Shown here one piece after another: positions 1 through 47,474 of a DNA stretch of 64,000 nt. This DNA comes from a virus: IMG/VR virus record IMGVR_UViG_3300033753_000334, positions 1 through 64,000 of that record, one strand, 5' to 3'. Every line of letters begins with the position of its first letter. The stretch's first letter is position 1. Under the pieces are notes generated by a model. The model was not told the origin of the DNA. It was given only the letters and a program-made list of their open reading frames with translations, and searched no databases. The position numbers were made by a program, and so were the translations under genes.

Positions 1-1179
1 ATGATTCGTGCGAAGAAAGTCTATTTCCGGGCATCCAAAACGGATATAGATCGGTTGTTTGCCTGCAACCGGGAATCGGCTCTTGTTTGGAATGAATGCT
101 TACGGCTGGCAAAAGAGTATCATCTTGAACATAAAAAATGGATTTCGAAATCCGAGCTTCAGAAACAAACAAAAGGGAAATTCCACCTACATAGCCAATC
201 CATTCAGGCGGTTTGCCACAAATATCTTTTCGCCAGAGACTCCTCCCATCAGGCAATCAAAAAAGGAAAGACAACTATACGCTACCCCTACAAGAAAAAG
301 AAACATTACAACACCAAATGGGCAAAAGACGGGTTCAAGATTTACCCAAATGGAAAAATTGAACTATCCATGGGCGTTCACAACGGAAAAAGGAAAAAAC
401 CGATTGTGGTTCATGCGTCCAACCTGCCACAAGAGAATATCAAGGAAATCGAACTGTGTTACGACAATGGATTGTATCTTGCGGTTTCTTTTGAAGATGG
501 GCAAGAAAACAAGCCCTATCAATCCAGCCATTCCGTCGGTGTTGATATGGGAGAAATCCATACCCTTTCCGCTTTTTGTGAAAATGGACAGGCCTTGATC
601 GTTACAGGTCGAAAAATACGTTCTCTTCACCGTTTGCGGAATAAGAAATTGGCAGAAATCCAACGTCTGCAATCGAAATGTAAAAAAGGATCCCGCCAAT
701 GGAAAAAATACCAACGAGCCAAACAGTATATTCTTTCCAAATCAGAGAAACAACTGCAAGATGCGCTGCACAAGGCGACCCGAAACTTTGTGAAGTGGTG
801 TGTGAAGCAGTCGATTTCAGATGTGTATGTGGGAAATCCTGAAGGGGTTCAACGAAATACCCGCAAGAAAAAGAAAACAAACCGAAAGCAGGCTCAGAAA
901 TTGTCCAACTGGTCATTTGGAAAAGTGAAAGACTATCTCAAATATAAATTGGCACAAGACGGAATCAAGATGCACGAGGTGGATGAGTCGTATACAAGTC
1001 AGACATGCCCTGTCTGCAGGAGGAAACAAAGAGTGTCTTCCAGAAATTATGTGTGTTCATGCGGATATCGTGAACATCGGGATGTTCATGGCGCACGAAA
1101 CATTTTAAGTAGAGCCATATATGGTGAGATGCTTCCTTTCGATATACCAACGAAACTGAAGTATCTACGTATCGCGTAA
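1..1179 (+). CDS. tnpB: IS200/IS605-family RNA-guided endonuclease TnpB
   Basis: N-terminal HTH, RuvC-I GVDMGE, YTSQTCPVC...CSCG zinc finger and RuvC-III HRDVHGARNI; followed by an IS right-end hairpin. Confidence 0.93.
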   Translation: MIRAKKVYFRASKTDIDRLFACNRESALVWNECLRLAKEYHLEHKKWISKSELQKQTKGKFHLHSQSIQAVCHKYLFARDSSHQAIKKGKTTIRYPYKKKKHYNTKWAKDGFKIYPNGKIELSMGVHNGKRKKPIVVHASNLPQENIKEIELCYDNGLYLAVSFEDGQENKPYQSSHSVGVDMGEIHTLSAFCENGQALIVTGRKIRSLHRLRNKKLAEIQRLQSKCKKGSRQWKKYQRAKQYILSKSEKQLQDALHKATRNFVKWCVKQSISDVYVGNPEGVQRNTRKKKKTNRKQAQKLSNWSFGKVKDYLKYKLAQDGIKMHEVDESYTSQTCPVCRRKQRVSSRNYVCSCGYREHRDVHGARNILSRAIYGEMLPFDIPTKLKYLRIA

Positions 1180-11959: not shown

Positions 11960-12170
11960 AAGATAAATACATCTCCCGTACCTCCAGAAATGTATTACGT
12001 AGGTGAGACTTATGGTGTTACCTACGTTATACCACAGTATATGGGGGGGTGATGTAGATATAACCACTAATTAGATTGAAATTTCTGTATATTTTATAAA
12101 AAATAATAATATAACAGCTTGTTTTTGTGCTATCTAAAAACGAAATACAAGTACGAATAGACGAACATGC

Positions 12171-12491
12171 AAGTGAGAAAATCTCACTTCAAGATGAGGA
12201 ATTCTCACTTCAAAACTCAAAAAATCTTACTGCAATACCAGAGATTACTACAGAGATTACAAACAGAGAAAAAAGAGAAGAGGAAGAAGGCTCGGTTTGG
12301 TGCTATCAAAAGGAAAAATATGTATGATGTCAGCGTACCACCCTCCTGCGCTCTAATGCATGACCCTCCTACGTTCTAAGGTATCACCCTCCCGCGTTTG
12401 AACGTAAGACAAATACAGAGATTACTACAAAGAATACTACAGAGATTAAAAGAGAAGAAGAGGAGGAGGTAAGTGACCGTAGGAGGGTCAT
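12171..12491 (+). repeat. Two iteron/origin-like repeat modules
   Basis: Palindromic AAGTGAGA-AAA-TCTCACTT units; three ACCCTCC..CG.T.TAA-type repeats at 23-bp period (12340, 12363, 12386) and an inverted copy at 12478-91; CAGAGATTACTA 12-mers in both modules. Confidence 0.75.
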
Positions 12492-23955: not shown

Positions 23956-24504
23956 ATGAAAACGCACGAACTAAAAACAGAACCACCGTATTTTCAGGCA
24001 GTGGTGGATGGTAGAAAGCGATTCGAAATTCGGAAAAACGATAGGGATTTTTCCGAGGGTGATACGTTGCTTCTAAAAGAGTTCGAACCAGTGAACAAGG
24101 AATATACAGGCCGAGAAGTTGAAGTTAAAGCGCTATACATCACGGACTATGCACAGCAACCTGGATATGTGGTGATAAGCATCCAGAAGATTGGAGCTAT
24201 GAACGATACAGAGCTAAGGGACATCGAAGAGCGATTGAACGAGATTACAGGAGCCGAATGGTTTCGATATCATGACGAAGGAGCTCCAATGAATATTCTT
24301 GGCACTTTCGTAGACGGCGAGGAAAAAGGCATTGGTGAATTTTACAATGATGAGGACGCATACTTTGCAGAACATGCACCAAACGATATACGCCGACTGG
24401 TGGATGAGGTTAAACGGTTGCGGAAAGAGAAGGAGCAAGCCTATCACGCAGGATATACACAAGGAAAGTTTGACGCGACGATGGAAATGACCTTCGGCAA
24501 ATAA
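23956..24504 (+). CDS. DUF3850/ASCH-like domain protein with C-terminal extension
   Basis: HELK..PYF..V..G.KRFEIRKNDRDF..GD. Confidence 0.8.
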   Translation: MKTHELKTEPPYFQAVVDGRKRFEIRKNDRDFSEGDTLLLKEFEPVNKEYTGREVEVKALYITDYAQQPGYVVISIQKIGAMNDTELRDIEERLNEITGAEWFRYHDEGAPMNILGTFVDGEEKGIGEFYNDEDAYFAEHAPNDIRRLVDEVKRLRKEKEQAYHAGYTQGKFDATMEMTFGK

Positions 24505-33800: not shown

Positions 33801-36800
33801 ACTGAACGAGACAACGGATGCGGTTGTGAAGGAAGTTGAAAATAAGCTGCTCCATAATATTGATTCTGGATTCGTGCGATTGATCGAGGGGATACGTGGA
33901 ATTAACGTGCCGCCGATTGAGTTTACTATCGTAGGTCGTATTCAGTCATGGATGCAGCAGGTGCAAGATGAGACTGCACGTGTTCTGGAACGGATGGTGG
34001 ATAGTTCGTTACGCCCTGTACTCGAACAAAACATTCCGTTCCCGACGCATAACGCAGGTCATGGTCAGCCGTTTATTCATGCAGGTTCACCGTATCCACC
34101 TGGATTCAATCCGTTCGGATCCCCTGCTCAAACCGGTAATGAACAGCTTACTCCTTACATCCCGCAAGCAGCACCACGCACTGATTTTGACCGGATGCAT
34201 GCATTGGAACGTCAGGCGCTAATTAATGCTGAACGTATTCAGAATCGCTTTAACAATTTGATGCAGAAGGGAAACTTTACACCGGATAATTTCAGAGAAT
34301 TAGCGGACATATTGAATGCATATCAAGCAGAAGTAGGAGCAGCGGCCAGTCGTTATCGAAATGTGCTCACTCAATTGGGAACGGACGGCACAACAGGTAC
34401 AGAAGACGAAACGGTGGCTCGTTTATTGGCGGAAGCAAGAACAAGATTACGTGAGGAAACGAATCTTGCTAAGCAACGACTGGATCACTACATTGAGAGT
34501 ACATTCAAGCCAGCAAGTCAATCCGATGCGCTGACAAAACGGTTGTTACAACAGGAATTAAAAAATGCGGGTTATCTTGATGCAGCGGATTTGAACGTAC
34601 AAAAGATGCAGACACGCTTTTATGGAAAATTGGATGAGGCACAGATGCAGGCGTTAAACGGAGAATTATCACGCTACTACCAGTTAGCGCAACAAGTTAG
34701 TTCTATGCATCTGCTAAACGAGGAAGATATTGCAGCATCAAAACGAGAAATGCAGTATCTGAACCAGTTACTTGCATCAATCTCAGCACGTTACAGTCAG
34801 ATTGCCAAACAAACAGCAGAAGCTAATAAACAGCAGCGGGATCGGGATAAGCGCGGGGAGTTGATTGGACAACACGATTTACTGCGTAACATGTCGATCA
34901 GTTCAGCAAAGTTTAAAGATACACTCAAGCAAATGAATGAATTTAGTAACTTTGTTGAGATTACCAATGCACAGGTTCGAAAAGGCGCGGATGGCTGGAA
35001 TAGCTGGTCTGCTACTCTAAAAACTGCTGAAGGTAATACGGTTCGCATGTCCGGTGTGATTAATATGCTGACCGGTGAAATCTATCGTCAATCTGAATCA
35101 ATCCGGGAAGCGCAAAGTCGATTGGAACGGTATGCACAGATGTCAGCGATAGCGTCACCATTTGCCAATTCAATGCGTGGGGGTCGCGGATGGCAGAAGG
35201 ATTATTCTGTACAAAATTACAACCCGGTAACAAGTGGGGGTGCAGAAATCGATCCGGGCGGAGATACAAAAACGTTCATGGGTTCCATTGTTAATACTAT
35301 GCGATACATGCTGTCCGGGATGCTCATGGGAACACCTACTATGATGTTCCACTCTGCATTCGAAGCAGCAAAAGAATTTGATTATCAGCTTGAGAAAGCG
35401 CGTCAAAACTTCGTTATCAAAGACCCGAAAATGTGGAATCAAGCGATAGAACAAGTGAGTATGAGGCATGGTGATGTGAAGGATAAGGAAGAATTAAACA
35501 AACTTGTGAAAGAAGAATCAAACCGCCTTATATACGAAATCAGGGATGGAGCAGTTGAGCGTCTGCAAAACATTGCGATCACGTATGCAGTTCCGACTGC
35601 CGAAATATCGAAGGCATGGCAGATTGCTTCGCGTATCACAAATTCAGATGATGAAGCAATCGCCTTTACGCGAGAAGTAGCCAAAGTTCGGACATTGGAA
35701 CAAGTAGACGTAGAAAAGGCAGCAATGGGATTCGAAGCGGTAAAATCACAGTGGGGTTTGAACGGCTATCAGTTGGAGAAGTTCAACAATATGATGATAA
35801 AAGCCGCGAACATTTCTACAGCTACAGTTGAGGACTTGCTGGATTTCCAAAAGCGTGCCGGTTCGATTATGCGTAATAATTTAGAGGGGGCAGGATTGAG
35901 CAAAAATGATGCGGCTGCATCTTCCATTGCATTTGCATCCTTGTTCAGTCAGGGTTCGGGCAGAAGTGGGGCAGAAGGTGGTACATTTGCGAAAGCTGTA
36001 ACAGAACGCCCATACCAAAGTGCGCAGGCTGAATATTTCAAGAAGAAGGCCGAACAGTTAAACATTGAGGAATTGAACCCATACAAGATAGATGAGTTTG
36101 GAAATGTACACAAGAGAGCCTTCACTGACTGGTTTGCTGCGCTATCGAAAGCAATGGTGATAGCGATGCCGACCGACCAGACAGAAATACTCAAGCAAGC
36201 GGCAGGTGTATACCATTCCGGTTCATCAGCGGCAATTCAGGCGATGATTACAGATATGCAGAAAAATGCTGCGGAGATTGCAAAAAGAGTCAATAACAAT
36301 CGCAGATCACTAGGGCTAGAAGAATTCGACCCGAAGGCTGATATGGACAAAATAATGAAAGAGTATATTAAGAAAATTAGCGAAGCAACACCGGAAGAGT
36401 CCGAAGTCATGCTCGCTGGAATGTCCACTACATGGAATTTTCAAATTGATCGTGTCAAAGCGATGTGGGAGTCCTCTACATTCAGAGTGCTTGATGCTTT
36501 GAAACCGGAGTTTCAGGATCTGACGACCACATTAGGGGTTTTACTTCGTTCGATGCGAGAAAATGCTACAACATGGGCACAGGCAATCACAGGAATCACC
36601 AATATCGGTATGATGTTAGCAGTTGGATATGGCATGAATACACTCTATAACAAATGGAAGGGATTCGGTCAGCAAACGAGAATGGATGAAATTGACAGAC
36701 AACGGGGCTTGTTGCAGGCAGAACGTGGAGCCATTAGTCTTCGCAAGGATTTGTTGGAAGATCGCCTTGCACAATTCCATAGTCAACATGGGAAAGAAAT

Positions 36801-39615: not shown

Positions 39616-39744
39616 ATGATGGAAGTAAAAGAACAAAAAGTTCAAAACATGACTAAAGAAGAGCGCAAGCAGTATGCCCGTGACCGTATTAAAAAAATCT
39701 GTGACCGTAATGATTCTGCATTAAGGAGATTGTCTAAAAATTGA
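39616..39744 (+). CDS. Putative short antitoxin for Doc (42 aa)
   Basis: MMEVKEQ...RNDSALRRLSKN; its stop overlaps the doc TTG start; the C-terminal AL.RL helix is typical of Doc antitoxins. Confidence 0.6.
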   Translation: MMEVKEQKVQNMTKEERKQYARDRIKKICDRNDSALRRLSKN

Positions 39745-40157
39745 GTTTAGAAGAATTTGATATAGTTCCTTTAACTTTAGACGATATATACGTAATTCAT
39801 GAGGAAATGTTAGAACGTTACGGCGGGATTTCGGGGGCTAGAGAGCCAGGGTTAATAGAGTATATGACCGAAAAACCCTTTCAAGAAACTTTCGGCTATA
39901 TTCTTTACCCTGGCTTATTTTTAAAAGCAGCTTGTTATATGGAGGGATTTGCTACTCATCAATATTTTAATGATGGTAATAAAAGAACAGCATATGGTTG
40001 TGCAGCTTTATTTTTAGATTATAACGGATTTACCATTATTGTTGATGATGAAGAGCTTTTCAATATGACTATGGACGTTGCTCTTAGAAGAGTTGACGTT
40101 AACGAACTTTCAAAGTGGCTTGAATCAGTTTCAGTTCCCTCAGAATACATAGAATAG
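39741..40157 (+). CDS. doc: Death-on-curing (Doc/Fic) family toxin
   Basis: HQYFNDGNKRTA Fic/Doc motif. Confidence 0.88.
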   Translation: MSLEEFDIVPLTLDDIYVIHEEMLERYGGISGAREPGLIEYMTEKPFQETFGYILYPGLFLKAACYMEGFATHQYFNDGNKRTAYGCAALFLDYNGFTIIVDDEELFNMTMDVALRRVDVNELSKWLESVSVPSEYIE

Positions 40158-42220: not shown

Positions 42221-42658
42221 TTATGCTTCTGATTTCGCGGCGGCCTCTTCTCTTTCGTTTCCATTCACTGACTTGGACGACGTTACTGTCCTGTCTCGTT
42301 GGCGCACCTCACTTCCCTGGCCAAGCAACAAGCCTTCGATGATTCCCTCCACTTTGATTCGGTTCTCCCTGGTCAACCGCCGGAATTTGGCCAGAAACTC
42401 GATGTCTGCGGGAGAAAAATCCCCTCCGATTGCTTGCTCTGATATACGTGCGGATTTTTCACCCTCCCCTCTTAAAATCCAATCAGCCGAAACGTCAAAA
42501 AAATCGGATAACGCGATCAAAGCGTCGGCTCCAGGTTTAACCTTGTCCAACTCCCAGTCACCAACATTCCCGCGCGAAACGCCGATAGCCTCCGCCAAAT
42601 CCTTCTGACTAATTTTTTTGGTAGCCCGAAGCTCTTTGATCCTTTGGCCAATACTCAT
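42221..42658 (-). CDS. XRE-family transcriptional repressor
   Basis: IGQRIKELR..SQKDLAEAIGVSRGNVGDWE..P..LSDFFDVSADWIL.G. Confidence 0.92.
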   Translation of the reverse strand: MSIGQRIKELRATKKISQKDLAEAIGVSRGNVGDWELDKVKPGADALIALSDFFDVSADWILRGEGEKSARISEQAIGGDFSPADIEFLAKFRRLTRENRIKVEGIIEGLLLGQGSEVRQRDRTVTSSKSVNGNEREEAAAKSEA

Positions 42659-42699
42659 TAGATCACCCTCCGCATTAATATTCGAGCAATACAAGAAAA

Positions 42700-42757
42700 A
42701 TACACGTAAAATTACGCGTTTATTGTTGATTATACACTAATATACGTGTATTATATT
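42700..42757. promoter_or_regulatory. Divergent promoter with palindromic operators
   Basis: ACACGTAA-AA-TTACGCGT and ATACAC-N8-GTGTAT palindromes overlapping TTGATT-N17-TATTAT. Confidence 0.6.
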
Positions 42758-42818
42758 GGTAGATAGAAAACCACATCACAAACCGATTCTACCATACCGC
42801 AATAGGTGCAAACAGTCG

Positions 42819-42836
42819 AACCTTGACAACTGAATA
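42819..42836 (+). promoter_or_regulatory. BoxA-like antitermination motif AACCTTGACAACTGAATA
   Basis: Similar to the motif at 5845-63; in the leader of the cas12f operon. Confidence 0.5.
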
Positions 42837-42873
42837 GCAAGATTCAGTGGATATTTGTGAGGAGGGAAATCGT

Positions 42874-43371
42874 ATGAACCAAAAAACTGGTTTGCTAGAC
42901 GAGATGATGGCATTTTTGCTTCAACCTCATAGACTCACATACAAAGACGTATACACAGCACTTGATATACTCATTTTATGTCCGGAGTGGGAGCGAGAGC
43001 AAGCATGGGATATTTTGAAGGCGGTGACTCGTAGATACGAAATTGCCCCCGCTGATGATTGGCAGGAAGAAACAGGGGATTTTCTCGAAGATATGAAAAT
43101 TATTTTGGACAGACCGGAACGACCGGATGATATTGAACTGTACGATGCCATTATTTCGCTAATGTTGTGCCAGGAATCGGAACGCGAGGAAGCGTGGAAT
43201 ATCATGCGAGCTATCGTGTATCGGTATGAGAACGAGCCAATCGTTTCGACACAAGATGTAGTTGATGTAGAAGAGTTGTTTCAAGAAATATTTCGTCTGA
43301 TTAGCTTGGCAGAGCAGTTAAATCAAGAAGAAGTAGAATACTACGATGGCTATTCTGTGCTGGTGAGCTAA
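42874..43371 (+). CDS. Acidic protein with an internal duplication
   Basis: GGAGGG RBS; two copies of Y.A...L.LC.E.ERE.AW.I..A...RYE. Confidence 0.75.
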   Translation: MNQKTGLLDEMMAFLLQPHRLTYKDVYTALDILILCPEWEREQAWDILKAVTRRYEIAPADDWQEETGDFLEDMKIILDRPERPDDIELYDAIISLMLCQESEREEAWNIMRAIVYRYENEPIVSTQDVVDVEELFQEIFRLISLAEQLNQEEVEYYDGYSVLVS

Positions 43372-43389
43372 ACACAGGGCAGGAGTTGT

Positions 43390-43565
43390 TTGGGCTGATT
43401 CGGCAGCCTCAAGTCGAGAAGTGCGCTAGAAAGGATAGCGCAACACTCGATAAGGTACACGCTTATGCGTGGGAAACGTCATACATGAAAACCGTATGAC
43501 CACCATCGTCGGTCAGGAATGATGTGAAAGTATCAGGAGAGCGACGAATACAAAGAGCAGGAATA
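43390..43565 (+). ncRNA. Cas12f tracrRNA 1
   Basis: GTCGAGAAGTGC...CACTCGATAAGGTA core resembling the AsCas12f1 tracrRNA as recalled; anti-repeat TACAAAGAGCAGGAAT complementary to the array 1 repeat. Confidence 0.8.
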
Positions 43566-43648
43566 TCACAGTTTCTGCAAGATATGAGCAGAAAAGTGCA
43601 AGACATGCTGATGACCTGAAAATATAGAGGTTTCAAGGCTTCGCATGA

Positions 43649-43876
43649 GTTTCTGCTCGATGTAACTGGAGTGCGAAGTTGGCTCTTATCTTCCTGCCCG
43701 AGCAACAGTCCTTCGTTTCTGCTCGATGTAACTGGAGTGCGAAGATAATTTGATCGAGCTGTGCTTTTTCATCCAGCTTTGTTTCTGCTCGATGTAACTG
43801 GAGTGCGAAGGTAAGTAAGGTCGGCGATAATGGAAGGGAGAGCAGTGTTTCTGCTCAATGTAGCTGGGGTGCGAAG
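43649..43876 (+). CRISPR. CRISPR array 1: four 30-bp repeats (GTTTCTGCTCGATGTAACTGGAGTGCGAAG) and three 36-bp spacers
   Basis: Repeats start at 43649, 43715, 43781 and 43847; the last is degenerate (3 mismatches). Confidence 0.95.
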
Positions 43877-43908
43877 TTCAATGCAGCCAAAACAAGGGAG
43901 GCAAGAAA

Positions 43909-45177
43909 ATGAAACACACGAAAGTCATGCGCTATCAAATTATCAAACCAATCAACGACACGTGGGAAACGTTGGGACATGTTCTGCGAGAAATCCAGCG
44001 AGAGACACGCGCGGCGCTAAACAAGACTATTCAACTCGCTTGGGAATGGCAGGGATTCAGGGCAGAATATAAGCAACGTTATGAAGAATATCCAAAAACA
44101 AAAGATCATCTTGGATATTCAGCGCTGCATGGCTATGCCTACAATCGCCTGAAAGATGAGTTCTACCGAATGAACACAGCTAACCTATCCCAGACGGTTA
44201 AACGTGCGGCAGACAAGTGGAAATCCGACCTAAAAGACGTTATGCGCGGCGACAAGTCAATCGCCAGCTTTAAAAAAGATTGTCCGATTGATATCGTGTC
44301 CCAGGCGCTTAGAATTCGCAAAGATGGTAGTGACTATATTCTGACACTAAGCCTAGTGAGCATTAAATACAGAAAGGAACTGGAACGCAAGCAATCATCA
44401 TTTGATGTTCTGATAAGTGCAAATGATAAAACACAGCGTGATATTCTTGACAGGCTCATCGCTGGAGAATACAAGCTTGGAGCATCACAATTGCTCTATC
44501 ACAAGAAAAAATGGTTCGTTAATGTGAACTACCAGTTTGAGAAAGAAGAAACAGCATTCGACCAGGATAACATCATGGGTGTTGACCTGGGGATCGTCTA
44601 TCCGGTATACATGGCGTTCAATAACTCGTTACATCGGTATAAAATAGAAGGTGGGGAGATTGAACGGTTCCGAGCACAAGTAGAACGTCGGAAGAAACAA
44701 TTACTTCAGCAAGCCAAATACTGCGGCGAGGGGCGGCGTGGTCACGGAACGAAAACACGTATCCAGCCAATTGAAGTTGTCTCAGACAAAGTAGCCAATT
44801 TTCGAGATACAGTGAATCACCGATACTCACGCTATGTTGTGGATATGGCTATCAAGCATCGTTGCGGTACAATTCAGATGGAAGACTTGACTGGTATTGC
44901 AACAGACAATACTTTTTTGAAAAGTTGGCCGTACTATGATCTGCAACAGAAAATAGAATACAAGGCTCATGAAGCAGGTATACAAGTTGTCTATATCAAG
45001 CCTGATTATACAAGCCAACGTTGCTCGAAATGCGGTCATATTGAACGCGATAATCGAACAGAACAGGCGACATTTGAATGTAAGTCATGTGGCTTTAAGA
45101 CGAATGCTGATTTTAATGCAGCACGAAACATTGCCACAAAGGATATTGAGAAGATTATCGCAGAAACATTGAAATAA
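43909..45177 (+). CDS. cas12f1: Cas12f1 (type V-F) RNA-guided nuclease, 422 aa
   Basis: Collinear with the recalled AsCas12f1 sequence (QLAWEW.GF, NLSQT, GVDLG, GGEIE.FR, ANFRDT.NHRYSRY, QMEDL, YTSQRCS.CG, NAD.NAARNIA); D/E/D triad intact; flanked by tracrRNAs and arrays. Confidence 0.93.
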   Translation: MKHTKVMRYQIIKPINDTWETLGHVLREIQRETRAALNKTIQLAWEWQGFRAEYKQRYEEYPKTKDHLGYSALHGYAYNRLKDEFYRMNTANLSQTVKRAADKWKSDLKDVMRGDKSIASFKKDCPIDIVSQALRIRKDGSDYILTLSLVSIKYRKELERKQSSFDVLISANDKTQRDILDRLIAGEYKLGASQLLYHKKKWFVNVNYQFEKEETAFDQDNIMGVDLGIVYPVYMAFNNSLHRYKIEGGEIERFRAQVERRKKQLLQQAKYCGEGRRGHGTKTRIQPIEVVSDKVANFRDTVNHRYSRYVVDMAIKHRCGTIQMEDLTGIATDNTFLKSWPYYDLQQKIEYKAHEAGIQVVYIKPDYTSQRCSKCGHIERDNRTEQATFECKSCGFKTNADFNAARNIATKDIEKIIAETLK

Positions 45178-45194
45178 TGAGCTGTTTAAAAATT

Positions 45195-45371
45195 TTCGGG
45201 GCGATTCGGCGTCCTTGAGTCGAGAAGTGCTTTGGAAAGTACAAAGTGGCACTCGATAAGGTACACGCTTATGCGTGGGAAACGCTATGCATGAAAACCG
45301 CATAGCCACCATCGTCGACCGATAGTAGCGTCAAAACTACTGAGGATCGACGACATACAGAACGCAGGAAT
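45195..45371 (+). ncRNA. Cas12f tracrRNA 2 (diverged paralog)
   Basis: Shares an identical 35-bp block with tracrRNA 1, with compensatory stem changes; anti-repeat CATACAGAACGCAGGAA fits the array 2 repeat. Confidence 0.8.
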
Positions 45372-45453
45372 GACGGTAGGTTTTCGCATTCAAGCAGAGA
45401 TATCTTTCTGAATATAAGAAGCGAGAAAAGTAGTAATATCAAGCTACTTCGTG

Positions 45454-45552
45454 TTTTTCTGCGAAATGTATATGGAATGCGAAGGAGAACAAGGTAGAAC
45501 GATAAGTCTTGAGGAAGCCAAGTTTTCTGCGGAATGTATATGGAATGCGAAG
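45454..45552 (+). CRISPR. CRISPR mini-array 2: two ~31-bp repeats (TTTTCTGCG(A/G)AATGTATATGGAATGCGAAG) and one 37-bp spacer
   Basis: Repeats at 45454-84 and 45522-52. Confidence 0.85.
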
Positions 45553-45562
45553 AGGTGATCGC

Positions 45563-46171
45563 ATGTCACAGGTTAAAGTTTTTGACAATGCTAACGAACC
45601 ACACAAACGAAAACTTTTCTACGCCACAGGTATCGCAGGGGCGGAATGGAAAGAAGTCCCGGCACGTATCATCGAGCCATACTCTCCACCGACTCCATCC
45701 TTGCGTGTCAAAGAAAACAAAGTACTGAACGCTCCATCAGATTTAGTCGGCAGTACCACAGCAAGCTATCGAATGAAAGCGCGGCTACTATTCCAGACGC
45801 GGCAAGATTTGACTGCATACCTTGTTTATATCAATTATCCGCACAAGTTTTATGATGAGCGCGGCGTGATTTATATTGGCTCAGTCGATGACCACATTCC
45901 AAGTGTTCACGAAGGGTTGCAGCGTTACACAGTCGAAATTTCCATGCTTATGACAAGGAAAGACCAGTATGATAAGAAGTACGAGAATCCATTTTCTGAT
46001 ACGAATCCTGATGCATGGTATTACAAAGATTTACTGGAGCTTATTGACATGGGCGTTATCGCTGGAAAAACAGATACAACATTCCGGCCTAACGACTACA
46101 TTTCTCGTGCCGAGTTTGCCGCGCTGTTGAACAGGATACGCAGGCTTGCTGAGTTAACAATTCGGACATAG
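45563..46171 (+). CDS. Distal-tail-like protein with C-terminal SLH domain
   Basis: First structural-looking gene after the tape measure insert; FSD..WY..G.I.G..D.TFRPN..ISRAEFAALLNR. Confidence 0.7.
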   Translation: MSQVKVFDNANEPHKRKLFYATGIAGAEWKEVPARIIEPYSPPTPSLRVKENKVLNAPSDLVGSTTASYRMKARLLFQTRQDLTAYLVYINYPHKFYDERGVIYIGSVDDHIPSVHEGLQRYTVEISMLMTRKDQYDKKYENPFSDTNPDAWYYKDLLELIDMGVIAGKTDTTFRPNDYISRAEFAALLNRIRRLAELTIRT

Positions 46172-46184
46172 AGGGGGCGAAAGT

Positions 46185-47474
46185 GTGACAGTTAGAGGTT
46201 TTGTTGACGTAACCCCGGACAAATGGTTTTACGACGATGTCATGGACTGTGCGAATTACTTGCTGGAAGATGACTCGCCGTTGATAGTGGGGATTCCGTA
46301 TTGTTCATTCGAAGCTGGTAAGCCAAATCATACACAGGAATTCAAAGGGAATGGACAGTCAGTGTTTACACTAGACAAAGCATTAACAATAACGCCGGAT
46401 AACCCATTATTCGTATATATTGACGGTGTGCAGACGTTCTACAAGGAAGCCAAAATCGAGGGGAGCAAAACGAAAGTAACGCTCTATTCTCCTGTTACCA
46501 ATGCACAATCGATTTTGTTTAAATATATCGGTTCCCCGCGAATGAAACCGGACAAAAAACCATACGGTGATTGTGGGTCGGTTGAATACCCACATTATCA
46601 ATTACAGTTCGGCAAAGAGGCAGATAAATCGATTTATCAGTACGTTTATAATCTCGATGGAAGGGGCTTCAGTGAAGTTGTATCATGCTTCGGAACACAG
46701 TTGAAACGAATCCGTATTTCAGAGGGTGAGTGGTACCTTTCCAATCACAATGAACTGCTGGCGAAGTATATAGGTGATAAACCAAACCTCTACACTATAA
46801 CACCGGGCGGTATTGTCTACTGTTCGTTCAACGTGGCTAATATGAAATGCAAAATCCGTTATCAGATGAAAGTGAGAGGGATTCTTGTAACGACTGGTGG
46901 CGAGTTTATTCCCGCATCTCAAAAAGTGAAGTATCTGGACCGTTTCTTCCCAGATGGGCAGTTGACGCGGGCAGAAGGTTTTTCAATCATTGACAGATTG
47001 CGACGTTCTTATTATCAGCGTTTTACTGACGCAGAGCCACCTGGTGCGACGATAGATGATACTTTCGTCGTTGAAGATTGTCAGGACACGTTTGTAACTT
47101 CGTCACGCTTCAGGATCGGAGAACCGTTGGAAGTGAAAGTGAATGGTTTTTTAAAAACGTTGGGAATTGATTATATTCAGGTTAATGACCATGCTGTTCA
47201 GTTTAAGTATTTGCTTCCAGCAGGAGCTGTTGTCACTATTAAACGAATAAAGAAGGAAAGTCATTTTGCGGATAGAGATTCACTAGGAGCATGGTACAAG
47301 GATGCGGTTATCTCAATGGAAAATGAACGAACGAGAGCAGGAGAACCGCTGATCGAAGGTGTTTTAAGTGGAGGACAGTTGTATTTTGACGGAGAATCCT
47401 ATATGACTCGTGCCCAAGCAATAGTGCTGCTCAACAGGTTCAGAAAATGGGCAATCGAAACGTTCAAGGGTTAG
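46185..47474 (+). CDS. Tail protein with split SLH motifs
   Basis: FVDV.PDKWFYD, FFPDGQLTRAE and YMTRAQAIVLLNR. Confidence 0.65.
   Translation: MTVRGFVDVTPDKWFYDDVMDCANYLLEDDSPLIVGIPYCSFEAGKPNHTQEFKGNGQSVFTLDKALTITPDNPLFVYIDGVQTFYKEAKIEGSKTKVTLYSPVTNAQSILFKYIGSPRMKPDKKPYGDCGSVEYPHYQLQFGKEADKSIYQYVYNLDGRGFSEVVSCFGTQLKRIRISEGEWYLSNHNELLAKYIGDKPNLYTITPGGIVYCSFNVANMKCKIRYQMKVRGILVTTGGEFIPASQKVKYLDRFFPDGQLTRAEGFSIIDRLRRSYYQRFTDAEPPGATIDDTFVVEDCQDTFVTSSRFRIGEPLEVKVNGFLKTLGIDYIQVNDHAVQFKYLLPAGAVVTIKRIKKESHFADRDSLGAWYKDAVISMENERTRAGEPLIEGVLSGGQLYFDGESYMTRAQAIVLLNRFRKWAIETFKG

What the first reader, a model, noticed from the sequence alone, without database searches (positions are those of the whole stretch)
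43390..45552. One phage Cas12f1 with two co-evolved tracrRNA/CRISPR pairs
Seen: tracr1 - array 1 (repeat GTTTCTGCTCGATGTAACTGGAGTGCGAAG) - cas12f1 - tracr2 - array 2 (repeat TTTTCTGCGGAATGTATATGGAATGCGAAG). The tracrRNAs share an identical 35-bp block (43444-78 = 45250-84). Elsewhere they differ by compensatory changes: GTCATAC/GTATGAC vs GCTATGC/GCATAGC around the same ATGAAAACC loop, and GGGCTG/CAGCCT vs GGGGCG/CGTCCT around the same ATTCGG loop. Each anti-repeat tracks its own repeat (TACAAAGAGCAGGAA vs TACAGAACGCAGGAA). Known: Cas12f needs a tracrRNA and is usually described with one. Inference: both scaffolds are under selection, giving one nuclease two guide channels, possibly orthogonal or differently timed. 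The RuvC triad is intact and no cas1/2/4 is present in the window.
Basis: partly seen in the sequence, partly recalled or inferred. Interest (0 to 1): 0.9.

Follow-up and report, generated by a model that had tools for sequence, protein, structure and literature searches.

The report
Two guide-RNA cassettes, one phage Cas12f
A prophage carries one miniature CRISPR nuclease (Cas12f) flanked by two diverged but intact helper-RNA-plus-array cassettes, both present as abundant RNA in public data; this layout recurs in other Cas12f loci and I found no paper describing it.

Summary
Window 43389-45552 reads tracrRNA 1, array 1 (4 repeats), cas12f (422 aa, about 60% identical to AsCas12f), tracrRNA 2, array 2 (2 repeats). 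Both tracrRNAs fit a covariance model of the family. Between them, 12 of 43 base pairs changed and none is broken. Each long anti-repeat pairs better with its own repeat (-18.2 and -16.2 against -12.7 kcal/mol). The core block, the pseudoknot loop and the repeat 3' ends are identical, so strict orthogonality is unlikely.

New evidence:
- In two metatranscriptome runs, RNA contigs cover both cassettes at depth 30-190. cas12f is at depth 3-4 and the flanks at 0.
- A roughly 94%-identical relative in a hot-spring metagenome keeps both cassettes but has different spacers.
- A protospacer for array-1 spacer 2 sits behind TTTA, which fits the AsCas12f PAM NTTR.
- The 99-kb record holds no other cas12f and no cas1.
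- Four other Cas12f lineages also carry two to five tracr cassettes per single cas12f, each set duplicated within its own locus.

Verdict: a real dual-cassette type V-F1 system in a phage cargo island, and a new variant of a known kind. This scan had already noted multi-tracr Cas12f loci on other DNA. Loading of both RNAs onto the protein, cleavage, and any separate roles remain untested.

The parts
42221..42694 (-). XRE/Cro-CI type HTH regulator, divergent from the cassette operon
   Evidence: Pfam HTH_3 at 4.7e-14. A promoter-like site at 42726-42754 faces the other way.
42847..43371 (+). ORF of 174 aa with two internal acidic repeats and no known family. Its stop lies 18 nt before tracrRNA 1.
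   Evidence: ORF list. No Pfam or PHROG match. RNA depth 0 in X5 and X6.
43389..43566 (+). tracrRNA 1. Stem 1 with the pseudoknot loop AUUCGG is at 43392-43409. Then come stems 2-4, the identical block 43444-43478, stem 5 at 43506-43547, and the long anti-repeat at 43549-43563.
   Evidence: CM R1 scores 121.1 bits. Fold z-score -5.0. Coordinates. RNA contigs run from 43449 onward in X5 and X6.
43567..43648 (+). Leader 1. It holds a degenerate repeat-like stretch at 43571-43602 and inverted repeat fragments (GAGCAGAAA; CTTCGCA at 43639-43645).
   Evidence: Covered by the RNA contigs. Function unexplained.
43649..43876 (+). CRISPR array 1: four 30-nt repeats and three 36-nt spacers. The terminal repeat is degenerate.
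   Evidence: RNA contigs 43449-43886 (X5) and 43449-43876 (X6). Spacer content differs in X4. A protospacer of spacer 2 sits behind TTTA.
43909..45177 (+). cas12f, 422 aa, AsCas12f-like, with intact RuvC and zinc ribbon
   Evidence: PDB 8J12/7WJU/8DZJ at E about 1e-153 over the full length. Pfam PF07282. Invariant catalytic columns. It is the only full-length copy in the record.
45195..45379 (+). tracrRNA 2. Stem 1 with the loop AUUCGG is at 45198-45215. The identical block is at 45250-45284, stem 5 at 45312-45353, and the long anti-repeat at 45356-45370.
   Evidence: CM R1 scores 116.3 bits. Fold z-score -3.4. This is the family's usual position, about 20 nt after the cas12f stop. RNA contigs 45206-45284 and 45255 onward.
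45380..45454 (+). Leader 2, with a 9-nt inverted copy of the repeat 3' end (TTCGCATTC at 45383-45391)
   Evidence: shuffle P about 0.005. Covered by the RNA contigs.
45455..45552 (+). CRISPR array 2: two 30-nt repeats and one 38-nt spacer. The last repeat abuts the ribosome-binding site of the next gene.
   Evidence: RNA contigs 45255-45600 (X5) and 45255-45532 (X6). The spacer is replaced in X4 and in a second strain in X3.
45563..46171 (+). SLH-domain tail-region protein, the first conserved phage gene after the cargo island
   Evidence: Pfam SLH at 3e-13. It is 82% identical to its homologue in related phage L177, which has other cargo upstream and no tracrRNA.

Best explanation
A temperate phage of a Bacillota host carries a minimal type V-F1 CRISPR-Cas12f interference module without adaptation genes. 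The module lies in a variable cargo island between the tape-measure gene and the tail genes. The single cas12f gene is flanked by two paralogous cassettes, each made of a tracrRNA, a leader and a mini-array. Both cassettes are transcribed in cells carrying the prophage. Both tracrRNAs keep the protein-binding core of the family: stem 1 with its pseudoknot loop, the base of stem 2, and the identical 35-nt block. Each long anti-repeat has co-varied with its own repeat. I infer that both cassettes supply guide RNAs to the same Cas12f dimer, which cuts NTTR-flanked targets in competing mobile DNA. The pair most likely arose by duplication of the tracr-array unit within the locus, followed by long divergence under structural constraint. 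The same kind of duplication has happened independently in other Cas12f lineages. Shown: anatomy, fold conservation, RNA presence, conservation of the layout, and spacer turnover. Inferred: loading of both RNAs on Cas12f, cleavage, and the benefit of having two cassettes.
For: - Protein: full-length match to AsCas12f structures at E about 1e-153. Catalytic and zinc residues are invariant.
- RNA fold: the family structure has 20 of 25 pairs with double changes, 94.7% of cells paired against 31-44% when partners are slid, and 0 of 500 shuffles reach the covariation score.
- Both window tracrRNAs fit the model at 121 and 116 bits.
- tracrRNA 1 against tracrRNA 2: 9 compensated, 3 one-sided and 0 broken pairs. 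Random placement of the differences gives at least 4 broken pairs in all 200,000 trials.
- Duplex energies: cognate -18.2 and -16.2 kcal/mol, cross -12.7.
- RNA: in X5, contigs 43449-43886 (depth 194) and 45255-45600 (depth 147), against depth 4 on cas12f and 0 on the flanks. X6 shows the same pattern at depths 39, 33 and 3. Twenty RNA runs each hold about a third of the sampled words.
- Relative X4: a 2534-nt contig keeps tracr1-array1-cas12f-tracr2. Array 1 is reduced to one different 35-nt spacer. A second contig shows array 2 with a replaced spacer. 43396 T>C with 43405 A>G turns a U-A pair of stem 1 into C-G.
- Target: contigs in X3 and X4 hold spacer 2 of array 1 inside unrelated DNA directly behind ...CTCTTTA. 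The AsCas12f PAM is NTTR (PMC11246509).
- AsCas12f accepts fully re-written long and short repeat:anti-repeat duplexes as long as they pair (PMC11246509).
- The record has only one cas12f and exactly two tracrRNAs.
- Recurrence: A. macrosporangiidus has one cas12f and five model hits. B. fungorum has one cas12f and two tandem cassettes. L123 has the same flanking layout as the window. L105/L106 have four hits. Co-resident tracrRNAs are each other's nearest relatives, at 73-86% identity.
Against: - No direct evidence that either RNA is bound by Cas12f or directs cleavage.
- RNA evidence comes from assembled contigs, which show neither strand nor ends. Their depths are rough.
- The first 60 nt or so of each tracrRNA are covered only by one X6 contig (45206-45284).
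- The RNA runs probably belong to one sampling campaign, the same habitat as the source sample.
- Array 2 has a single spacer.
- No spacer matches any phage in the INPHARED collection or IMG/VR, and the element that carries the protospacer is unidentified.
- Closer relatives could not be fetched, so duplication within the locus against import of one cassette from another Cas12f lineage is decided only by nearest-neighbour identity (80% against 69% or less).
- The host genome is not available.
Confidence: 0.7

Rival explanations
1. One cassette is a passenger: a leftover of a tandem duplication, or of recombination between two Cas12f-bearing phages. It is still transcribed but adds nothing beyond what the other cassette gives, and it is on its way to decay.
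For: - Most relatives have a single cassette. The usual place is downstream of cas12f, as for cassette 2.
- Array 2 has one spacer. Array 1 shrinks to one spacer in X4.
- Leaders carry repeat debris: a degenerate repeat at 43571-43602 and inverted fragments.
Against: - 49 differences have accumulated without breaking any of 43 pairs.
- Each anti-repeat tracks its own repeat.
- Both cassettes are kept in a roughly 94%-identical relative, with a further compensated change in tracrRNA 1 and new spacers in both arrays.
- Both are abundant as RNA.
- Diverged multi-cassette sets persist in four other lineages.
Confidence: 0.15
2. The two cassettes are functionally separate channels: orthogonal pairing, or different promoters and timing (for example lysogeny against lytic growth). 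Co-transcription of each tracrRNA with its own array may enforce this, so that pairing happens within one precursor.
For: - Cognate duplexes are 3.5-5.5 kcal/mol better than cross duplexes.
- RNA contigs run without a gap from each tracrRNA through its leader into its array.
- The cassettes sit in different promoter contexts. One follows the XRE-controlled ORF. The other follows cas12f, which has a promoter-like site at 45131-45158.
Against: - The pseudoknot loop and the repeat 3' ends are identical, and cross duplexes keep 7+4 pairs.
- AsCas12f reads pairing, not sequence, in these duplexes (PMC11246509).
- Contigs cannot show a single transcript.
- The promoter scan is no better than shuffles (8 sites found against 6.3 expected).
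- Both cassettes are present in the same RNA samples at similar depth.
Confidence: 0.1
3. The upstream cassette serves a different nuclease: a host-encoded Cas12f, the TnpB-like gene at window 1-1179, or a cas12f paralogue lost from this spot.
For: - The host genome is not in hand.
- A TnpB-like ORF exists at 1-1179, E 1e-9 to Cas12f.
- Cassette 1 lies in the less common upstream position.
Against: - tracrRNA 1 is closest to tracrRNA 2 (80%), shares its 35-nt core and pseudoknot loop, and lies 340 nt from this cas12f.
- The TnpB-like protein is only 22% identical.
- In the two analogous whole genomes with several cassettes, only one full-length cas12f exists.
- The similarity between the two cassettes begins at the base of tracrRNA stem 1 in both copies, and the ORF upstream of cassette 1 (42847-43371) has no Pfam or PHROG match.
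Confidence: 0.05

Closest known systems
AsCas12f1 (Acidibacillus sulfuroxidans) type V-F1 CRISPR-Cas; PDB 8J12, 7WJU, 8DZJ
   Same: - Protein of 422 aa, about 60% identical over its full length, with the same RuvC and zinc residues.
- tracrRNA-dependent, with a long repeat:anti-repeat duplex plus a short pseudoknot duplex (PMC11246509, PMC12255294).
- The one protospacer found sits behind TTTA, which fits NTTR.
   Different: Described Cas12f systems are presented with one tracrRNA and one array. Here two diverged tracrRNA-array cassettes flank the gene. The locus is also phage-borne and lacks cas1.
Second or alternative tracrRNAs in Cas9 loci (noted in bioRxiv 10.1101/2020.09.02.279885; long-form tracrRNA as a natural single guide, bioRxiv 10.1101/2020.05.21.102756)
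   Same: More than one tracrRNA-type RNA is encoded in one class 2 locus and used by one effector.
   Different: Those are type II. The extra RNA is an alternative or regulatory form without its own array. Here each tracrRNA has its own co-varying array, and no spacer matches the locus itself.
cas loci flanked by two CRISPR arrays, including phage-borne ones (Vibrio phage ICP1 type I-F, as summarised in bioRxiv 10.64898/2026.04.20.719267)
   Same: Two arrays serve one interference module on a phage, presumably for conflicts between mobile elements.
   Different: Those systems need no tracrRNA, and the two arrays share one repeat type. Here the repeats differ at 7 of 30 positions, and each array comes with a matching tracrRNA.
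Multi-cassette Cas12f loci found here in public genomes (Alicyclobacillus macrosporangiidus DSM 17980, Bacillus fungorum 17-SMS-01, metagenome contigs L123 and L105/L106)
   Same: One cas12f with two to five tracrRNA-type scaffolds. Co-resident scaffolds are each other's nearest relatives.
   Different: - They belong to other Cas12f lineages (37-58% identity).
- B. fungorum has both cassettes in tandem downstream.
- In A. macrosporangiidus each scaffold runs straight into a single repeat and guide.
- I found none of them described in a paper.

Membership tests
Type V-F1 CRISPR-Cas12f (AsCas12f-like) | Effector homologous to Cas12f1 over its whole length | tested here: met
   phmmer against PDB: 8J12, 7WJU and 8DZJ at E about 1e-153, residues 4-422. 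Pfam Cas12f1-like TNB at 1e-24.
Type V-F1 CRISPR-Cas12f (AsCas12f-like) | Intact RuvC D-E-D triad and CCCC zinc ribbon | tested here: met
   D226, E325, D401 and C372, C375, C391, C394 are invariant columns in 31 homologues. They align with the AsCas12f motifs.
Type V-F1 CRISPR-Cas12f (AsCas12f-like) | tracrRNA with the family fold, a long anti-repeat, and a loop that forms the short pseudoknot duplex with the repeat 3' end | tested here: met
   CM R1 at 121 and 116 bits. Covariation on 29 sequences. Loop UUCG pairs with repeat CGAA in the window, and loop UUCA with UGAA in L003. Anti-repeat duplexes -18.2 and -16.2 kcal/mol.
Type V-F1 CRISPR-Cas12f (AsCas12f-like) | Adjacent CRISPR array on the same strand | tested here: met
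   Arrays at 43649-43876 and 45455-45552.
Type V-F1 CRISPR-Cas12f (AsCas12f-like) | T-rich 5' PAM (NTTR for AsCas12f) | tested here: inconclusive
   There is one protospacer only: spacer 2 of array 1 lies behind TTTA in contigs of X3 and X4. The repeat end GAAG before each resident spacer does not fit NTTR.
Type V-F1 CRISPR-Cas12f (AsCas12f-like) | Homodimer on one guide RNA; RNA-guided dsDNA cleavage | not testable with these tools
   Needs biochemistry.
Phage-borne CRISPR used in conflicts between mobile elements | Encoded on a phage genome, outside the conserved gene order | tested here: met
   Terminase, portal, major head, tape measure and tail genes are present. IMG/VR classes the record as a provirus. 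Related phage L177 has other cargo at this spot.
Phage-borne CRISPR used in conflicts between mobile elements | Spacers match other phages, satellites or plasmids | tested here: inconclusive
   No match in INPHARED or IMG/VR. One protospacer lies in an unidentified contig. The weak XRE-homologue match of spacer 1 is at chance level overall.
Regulatory cr-like or tracr-like RNA (autoregulation by partial self-match) | Guide partially complementary to the locus's own promoter, conserved among relatives | tested here: not met
   The best self matches are 20-23 of 36-38 nt, no better than background. The array-2 spacer differs among relatives.

The most novel reading that the evidence does not exclude
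The tracrRNA-leader-array unit of type V-F1 is a self-contained, duplicable guide cassette. It may be transcribed as one precursor, so that each anti-repeat pairs preferentially in cis with its own repeats. Natural loci repeatedly multiply it around a single cas12f. The copies are driven to diverge in sequence while keeping structure, which gives partly insulated guide channels and also protects the nuclease gene between them from deletion by recombination.
Probability: 0.25. Interest if true: 0.75.

Novelty: new variant of a known kind. Interest (0 to 1): 0.66.

Why it matters
Cas12f is the main miniature genome-editing nuclease, and its long guide scaffold is the focus of much engineering.
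- A natural locus where one nuclease lives with two scaffolds that differ at 49 positions, all structurally compensated, is a ready-made map of what the protein tolerates. It is also a direct test case for scaffold orthogonality and multiplexing.
- The same multiplication of tracr-array cassettes occurs in at least four other Cas12f lineages. This suggests a general and so far unremarked mode of evolution of tracrRNA-dependent type V loci, relevant to how the ancestral single guide RNA of TnpB split and diversified.
- The case adds a phage-borne Cas12f module with RNA evidence from natural samples and visible spacer turnover without cas1.

Tried and rejected
The contigs of the identical protein cluster and of the 90%-identical protein P0002 could therefore not be fetched.
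- Repeat pattern in IMG/VR: no match.
- Spacers against the INPHARED phage collection: no match.
- Spacers against the phage's own 99 kb: only background matches.
- Protospacer with PAM, and its flank, in IMG/VR: no match. The target element stays unidentified.
- Earlier-scan lead that spacer 1 derives from an XRE-repressor homologue: 23 of 36 overall is the same as the best random matches. By my estimate the local 18 of 22 is expected about 0.4 times by chance. The lead is neither supported nor excluded.
- Rfam: no family matches the region.
- The promoter and terminator scan is uninformative (8 sites against 6.3 expected).
- RNA contigs do not cover 43389-43448, and cover 45195-45254 only from 45206, in X6. 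This cannot be read as absence, because the contigs break inside the 35-nt block shared by both tracrRNAs.
- I tried by hand to show repeat:anti-repeat covariation in the B. fungorum and L123 cassettes. It was not clear, so I make no claim.
- The genome contigs and metagenome-contig scans returned mostly distant TnpB. They missed the closest named homologues: Thermaerobacillus caldiproteolyticus, Laceyella putida and Brevibacillus centrosporus.
- Searching relatives around a locus failed because a genome handle is needed.
Full report
**What is there.** Window 43372-45562 contains, all on the + strand:
- a 178-nt tracrRNA-like gene (43389-43566);
- an 82-nt leader;
- a four-repeat array (43649-43876);
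- a 422-codon ORF (43909-45177);
- a second tracrRNA-like gene (45195-45379);
- a 75-nt leader;
- a two-repeat array (45455-45552).

The two tracr regions form a direct repeat of 81% identity with one identical 35-nt block, 43444-43478 = 45250-45284. The two repeat types differ at 7 of 30 positions.

**The protein.** The ORF matches the solved AsCas12f structures (8J12, 7WJU, 8DZJ) over residues 4-422 at E about 1e-153. It carries the Cas12f1-like TNB domain. In an alignment of 31 homologues, D226, E325, D401 and the four zinc cysteines are invariant. It is a member of the AsCas12f-like branch of type V-F1. The closest database proteins are 90% and then 68% identical or less.

**The RNAs.** Each tracr region folds on its own into the same five-stem shape.
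- Seven tracr regions from related loci give a consensus fold in which 13 of 25 pairs covary.
- The covariance model built from it scores the two window copies at 121 and 116 bits. It also finds one hit next to cas12f in about 50 further loci.
- On 29 aligned hits, 94.7% of cells pair, against 31-44% when partners are slid. Twenty of 25 pairs show double changes.
- Between the two window copies, 43 consensus pairs split into 31 unchanged, 3 one-sided, 9 double changes and 0 broken. Random placement of the 49 differences breaks about 16 pairs and never fewer than 4 in 200,000 trials. That fold was derived from these two sequences, so the family analysis is the independent support.
- The stem-1 loop AUUCGG can pair with CGAA at the repeat 3' end. 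In relative L003 the loop is AUUCAG and the repeat ends UGAA. This matches the short pseudoknot duplex that is essential in AsCas12f (PMC11246509).
- The loop and the repeat end are identical in both window cassettes.
- The long anti-repeats differ and track their own repeats. Predicted duplexes are -18.2 and -16.2 kcal/mol for cognate pairs and -12.7 for both crosses.

There is therefore co-evolution of each pair, but only partial specificity. Because AsCas12f tolerates fully re-written duplexes as long as they pair (PMC11246509), one protein should accept both.

**Context.**
- The record is a 98,984-base IMG/VR provirus with terminase, portal, major head, a 2835-aa tape measure and tail genes.
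- The CRISPR module sits in a cargo island after the tape-measure gene, together with a Fic/DOC gene, an XRE regulator and a 174-aa acidic ORF.
- A related phage whose SLH tail-region protein is 82% identical carries other genes at this spot and no tracrRNA.
- The record holds no Cas1, no other Cas12f beyond a 22%-identical TnpB-like ORF, exactly two tracrRNAs and no further arrays.

**Public reads.**
- Three DNA runs hold most of the stretch, and twenty metatranscriptome runs each hold about a third of it.
- Laid on 42700-46300, the RNA contigs of two runs cover just the two cassettes. In X5 these are 43449-43886 at depth 194 and 45255-45600 at depth 147. In X6 they are 43449-43876 at 39, 45255-45532 at 33, and 45206-45284 at 28.
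- In the same runs, cas12f fragments are at depth 3-4 and the neighbouring genes at 0. DNA carry-over would not give this pattern.
- The contigs start inside the shared 35-nt block, which is an assembly break, so the 5' ends are unknown. Contigs show neither strand nor single transcripts. The runs are likely one campaign.
- In a hot-spring metagenome (X4), a 2534-nt contig about 94% identical keeps tracr1-array1-cas12f-tracr2, but array 1 holds a single, different 35-nt spacer.
- A second X4 contig continues through array 2 with a replaced spacer. X3 holds a further array-2 variant.
- Among the listed differences, 43396 T>C and 43405 A>G convert a U-A pair of tracrRNA 1 stem 1 into C-G.
- Contigs in X3 and X4 contain spacer 2 of array 1 embedded in unrelated sequence directly after ...CTCTTTA. 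This is a protospacer with a PAM fitting NTTR.

**Recurrence.** Most relatives have one cassette, usually cas12f-tracr-array and sometimes tracr-array-cas12f. The model finds several hits per locus in four other lineages:

| Locus | cas12f copies | tracr scaffolds | Notes |
|---|---|---|---|
| Alicyclobacillus macrosporangiidus | one full-length in the genome | five on one contig | each of the four intact scaffolds runs into a single repeat and guide |
| Bacillus fungorum | one | two tandem tracr-array cassettes | both downstream |
| Metagenome contig L123 | one | two | same flanking layout as the window |
| L105/L106 | one | four | |

In every case the co-resident tracrRNAs are each other's nearest relatives, at 73-86% identity. 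The window pair is 80% identical to each other and at most 69% to any other tracrRNA. This points to independent duplications within each locus that then persisted.

**Literature.** Searches for two or multiple tracrRNAs with Cas12f, and for two CRISPR arrays with Cas12f, found no description of this layout.
- The tracrRNA survey of class 2 systems does not mention it in the passages found.
- A second tracrRNA has been suggested for some Cas9 loci.
- Earlier notes of this scan report several tracrRNA genes in phage loci with nuclease-dead Cas12f. I did not test those.

**Reading.** Both cassettes most likely feed the one Cas12f (confidence 0.7). The idea of orthogonal or differently timed channels remains open and is less likely. 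Still unexplained are the 9-nt inverted copies of repeat parts in both leaders and the degenerate repeat directly after anti-repeat 1.

Noticed in passing
window 43571-43645 and 45383-45391: Each leader holds a 9-nt exact inverted copy of part of its own repeat: GAGCAGAAA in leader 1 and TTCGCATTC in leader 2 (shuffle P about 0.005 for the latter). Leader 1 also has CTTCGCA just before the first repeat and a degenerate repeat-like stretch right after the anti-repeat. They may be relics of rearrangement or extra pairing sites.
   Followed up: partly
L014 / G002 contig C70 (Alicyclobacillus macrosporangiidus), model hits at 24192, 25908, 27543, 36320, 50358: One full-length cas12f but five tracrRNA-type scaffolds spread over 26 kb. 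Each of the four intact ones runs directly into a single repeat and a short guide, like natural single-guide RNAs. The one at 36320 is cut by an IS605-type element.
   Followed up: partly
L016 4161-5360 (Bacillus fungorum) and L123 1112-3272 (metagenome contig): Further single-cas12f loci with two tracr-array cassettes. In L016 they lie in tandem downstream. In L123 they flank the gene, as in the window.
   Followed up: partly
window 42847-43371: A 174-aa acidic protein with two internal repeats of about 55 aa and no family match. It lies between the XRE-controlled promoter region and tracrRNA 1. It has no RNA contig cover in X5 or X6, unlike the cassette next to it.
   Followed up: no
window 43679-43714 vs 42302-42337: The last 22 nt of spacer 1 match the neighbouring XRE gene at 18 of 22, and both read EGLLLGQ in frame. 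Overall the match is 23 of 36, which is chance level. The spacer could target the repressor of a related phage.
   Followed up: partly
window 39741-40157 and 1-1179: A Fic/DOC-family gene lies in the same cargo island. A separate TnpB-like ORF (392 aa, 22% identical to the Cas12f) lies at the window start.
   Followed up: no
window 12170-12445: Three short tandem-repeat sets (periods 21, 23 and 12) in the gene-free stretch between the terminase and portal genes.
   Followed up: no
run X4, contig of 34,877 nt matching window 44200-44301 at about 81%: The same hot-spring sample holds a second, more distant cas12f relative. Its tracrRNA diverges from tracrRNA 2 right after position 45263, with another stem 3.
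   Followed up: no
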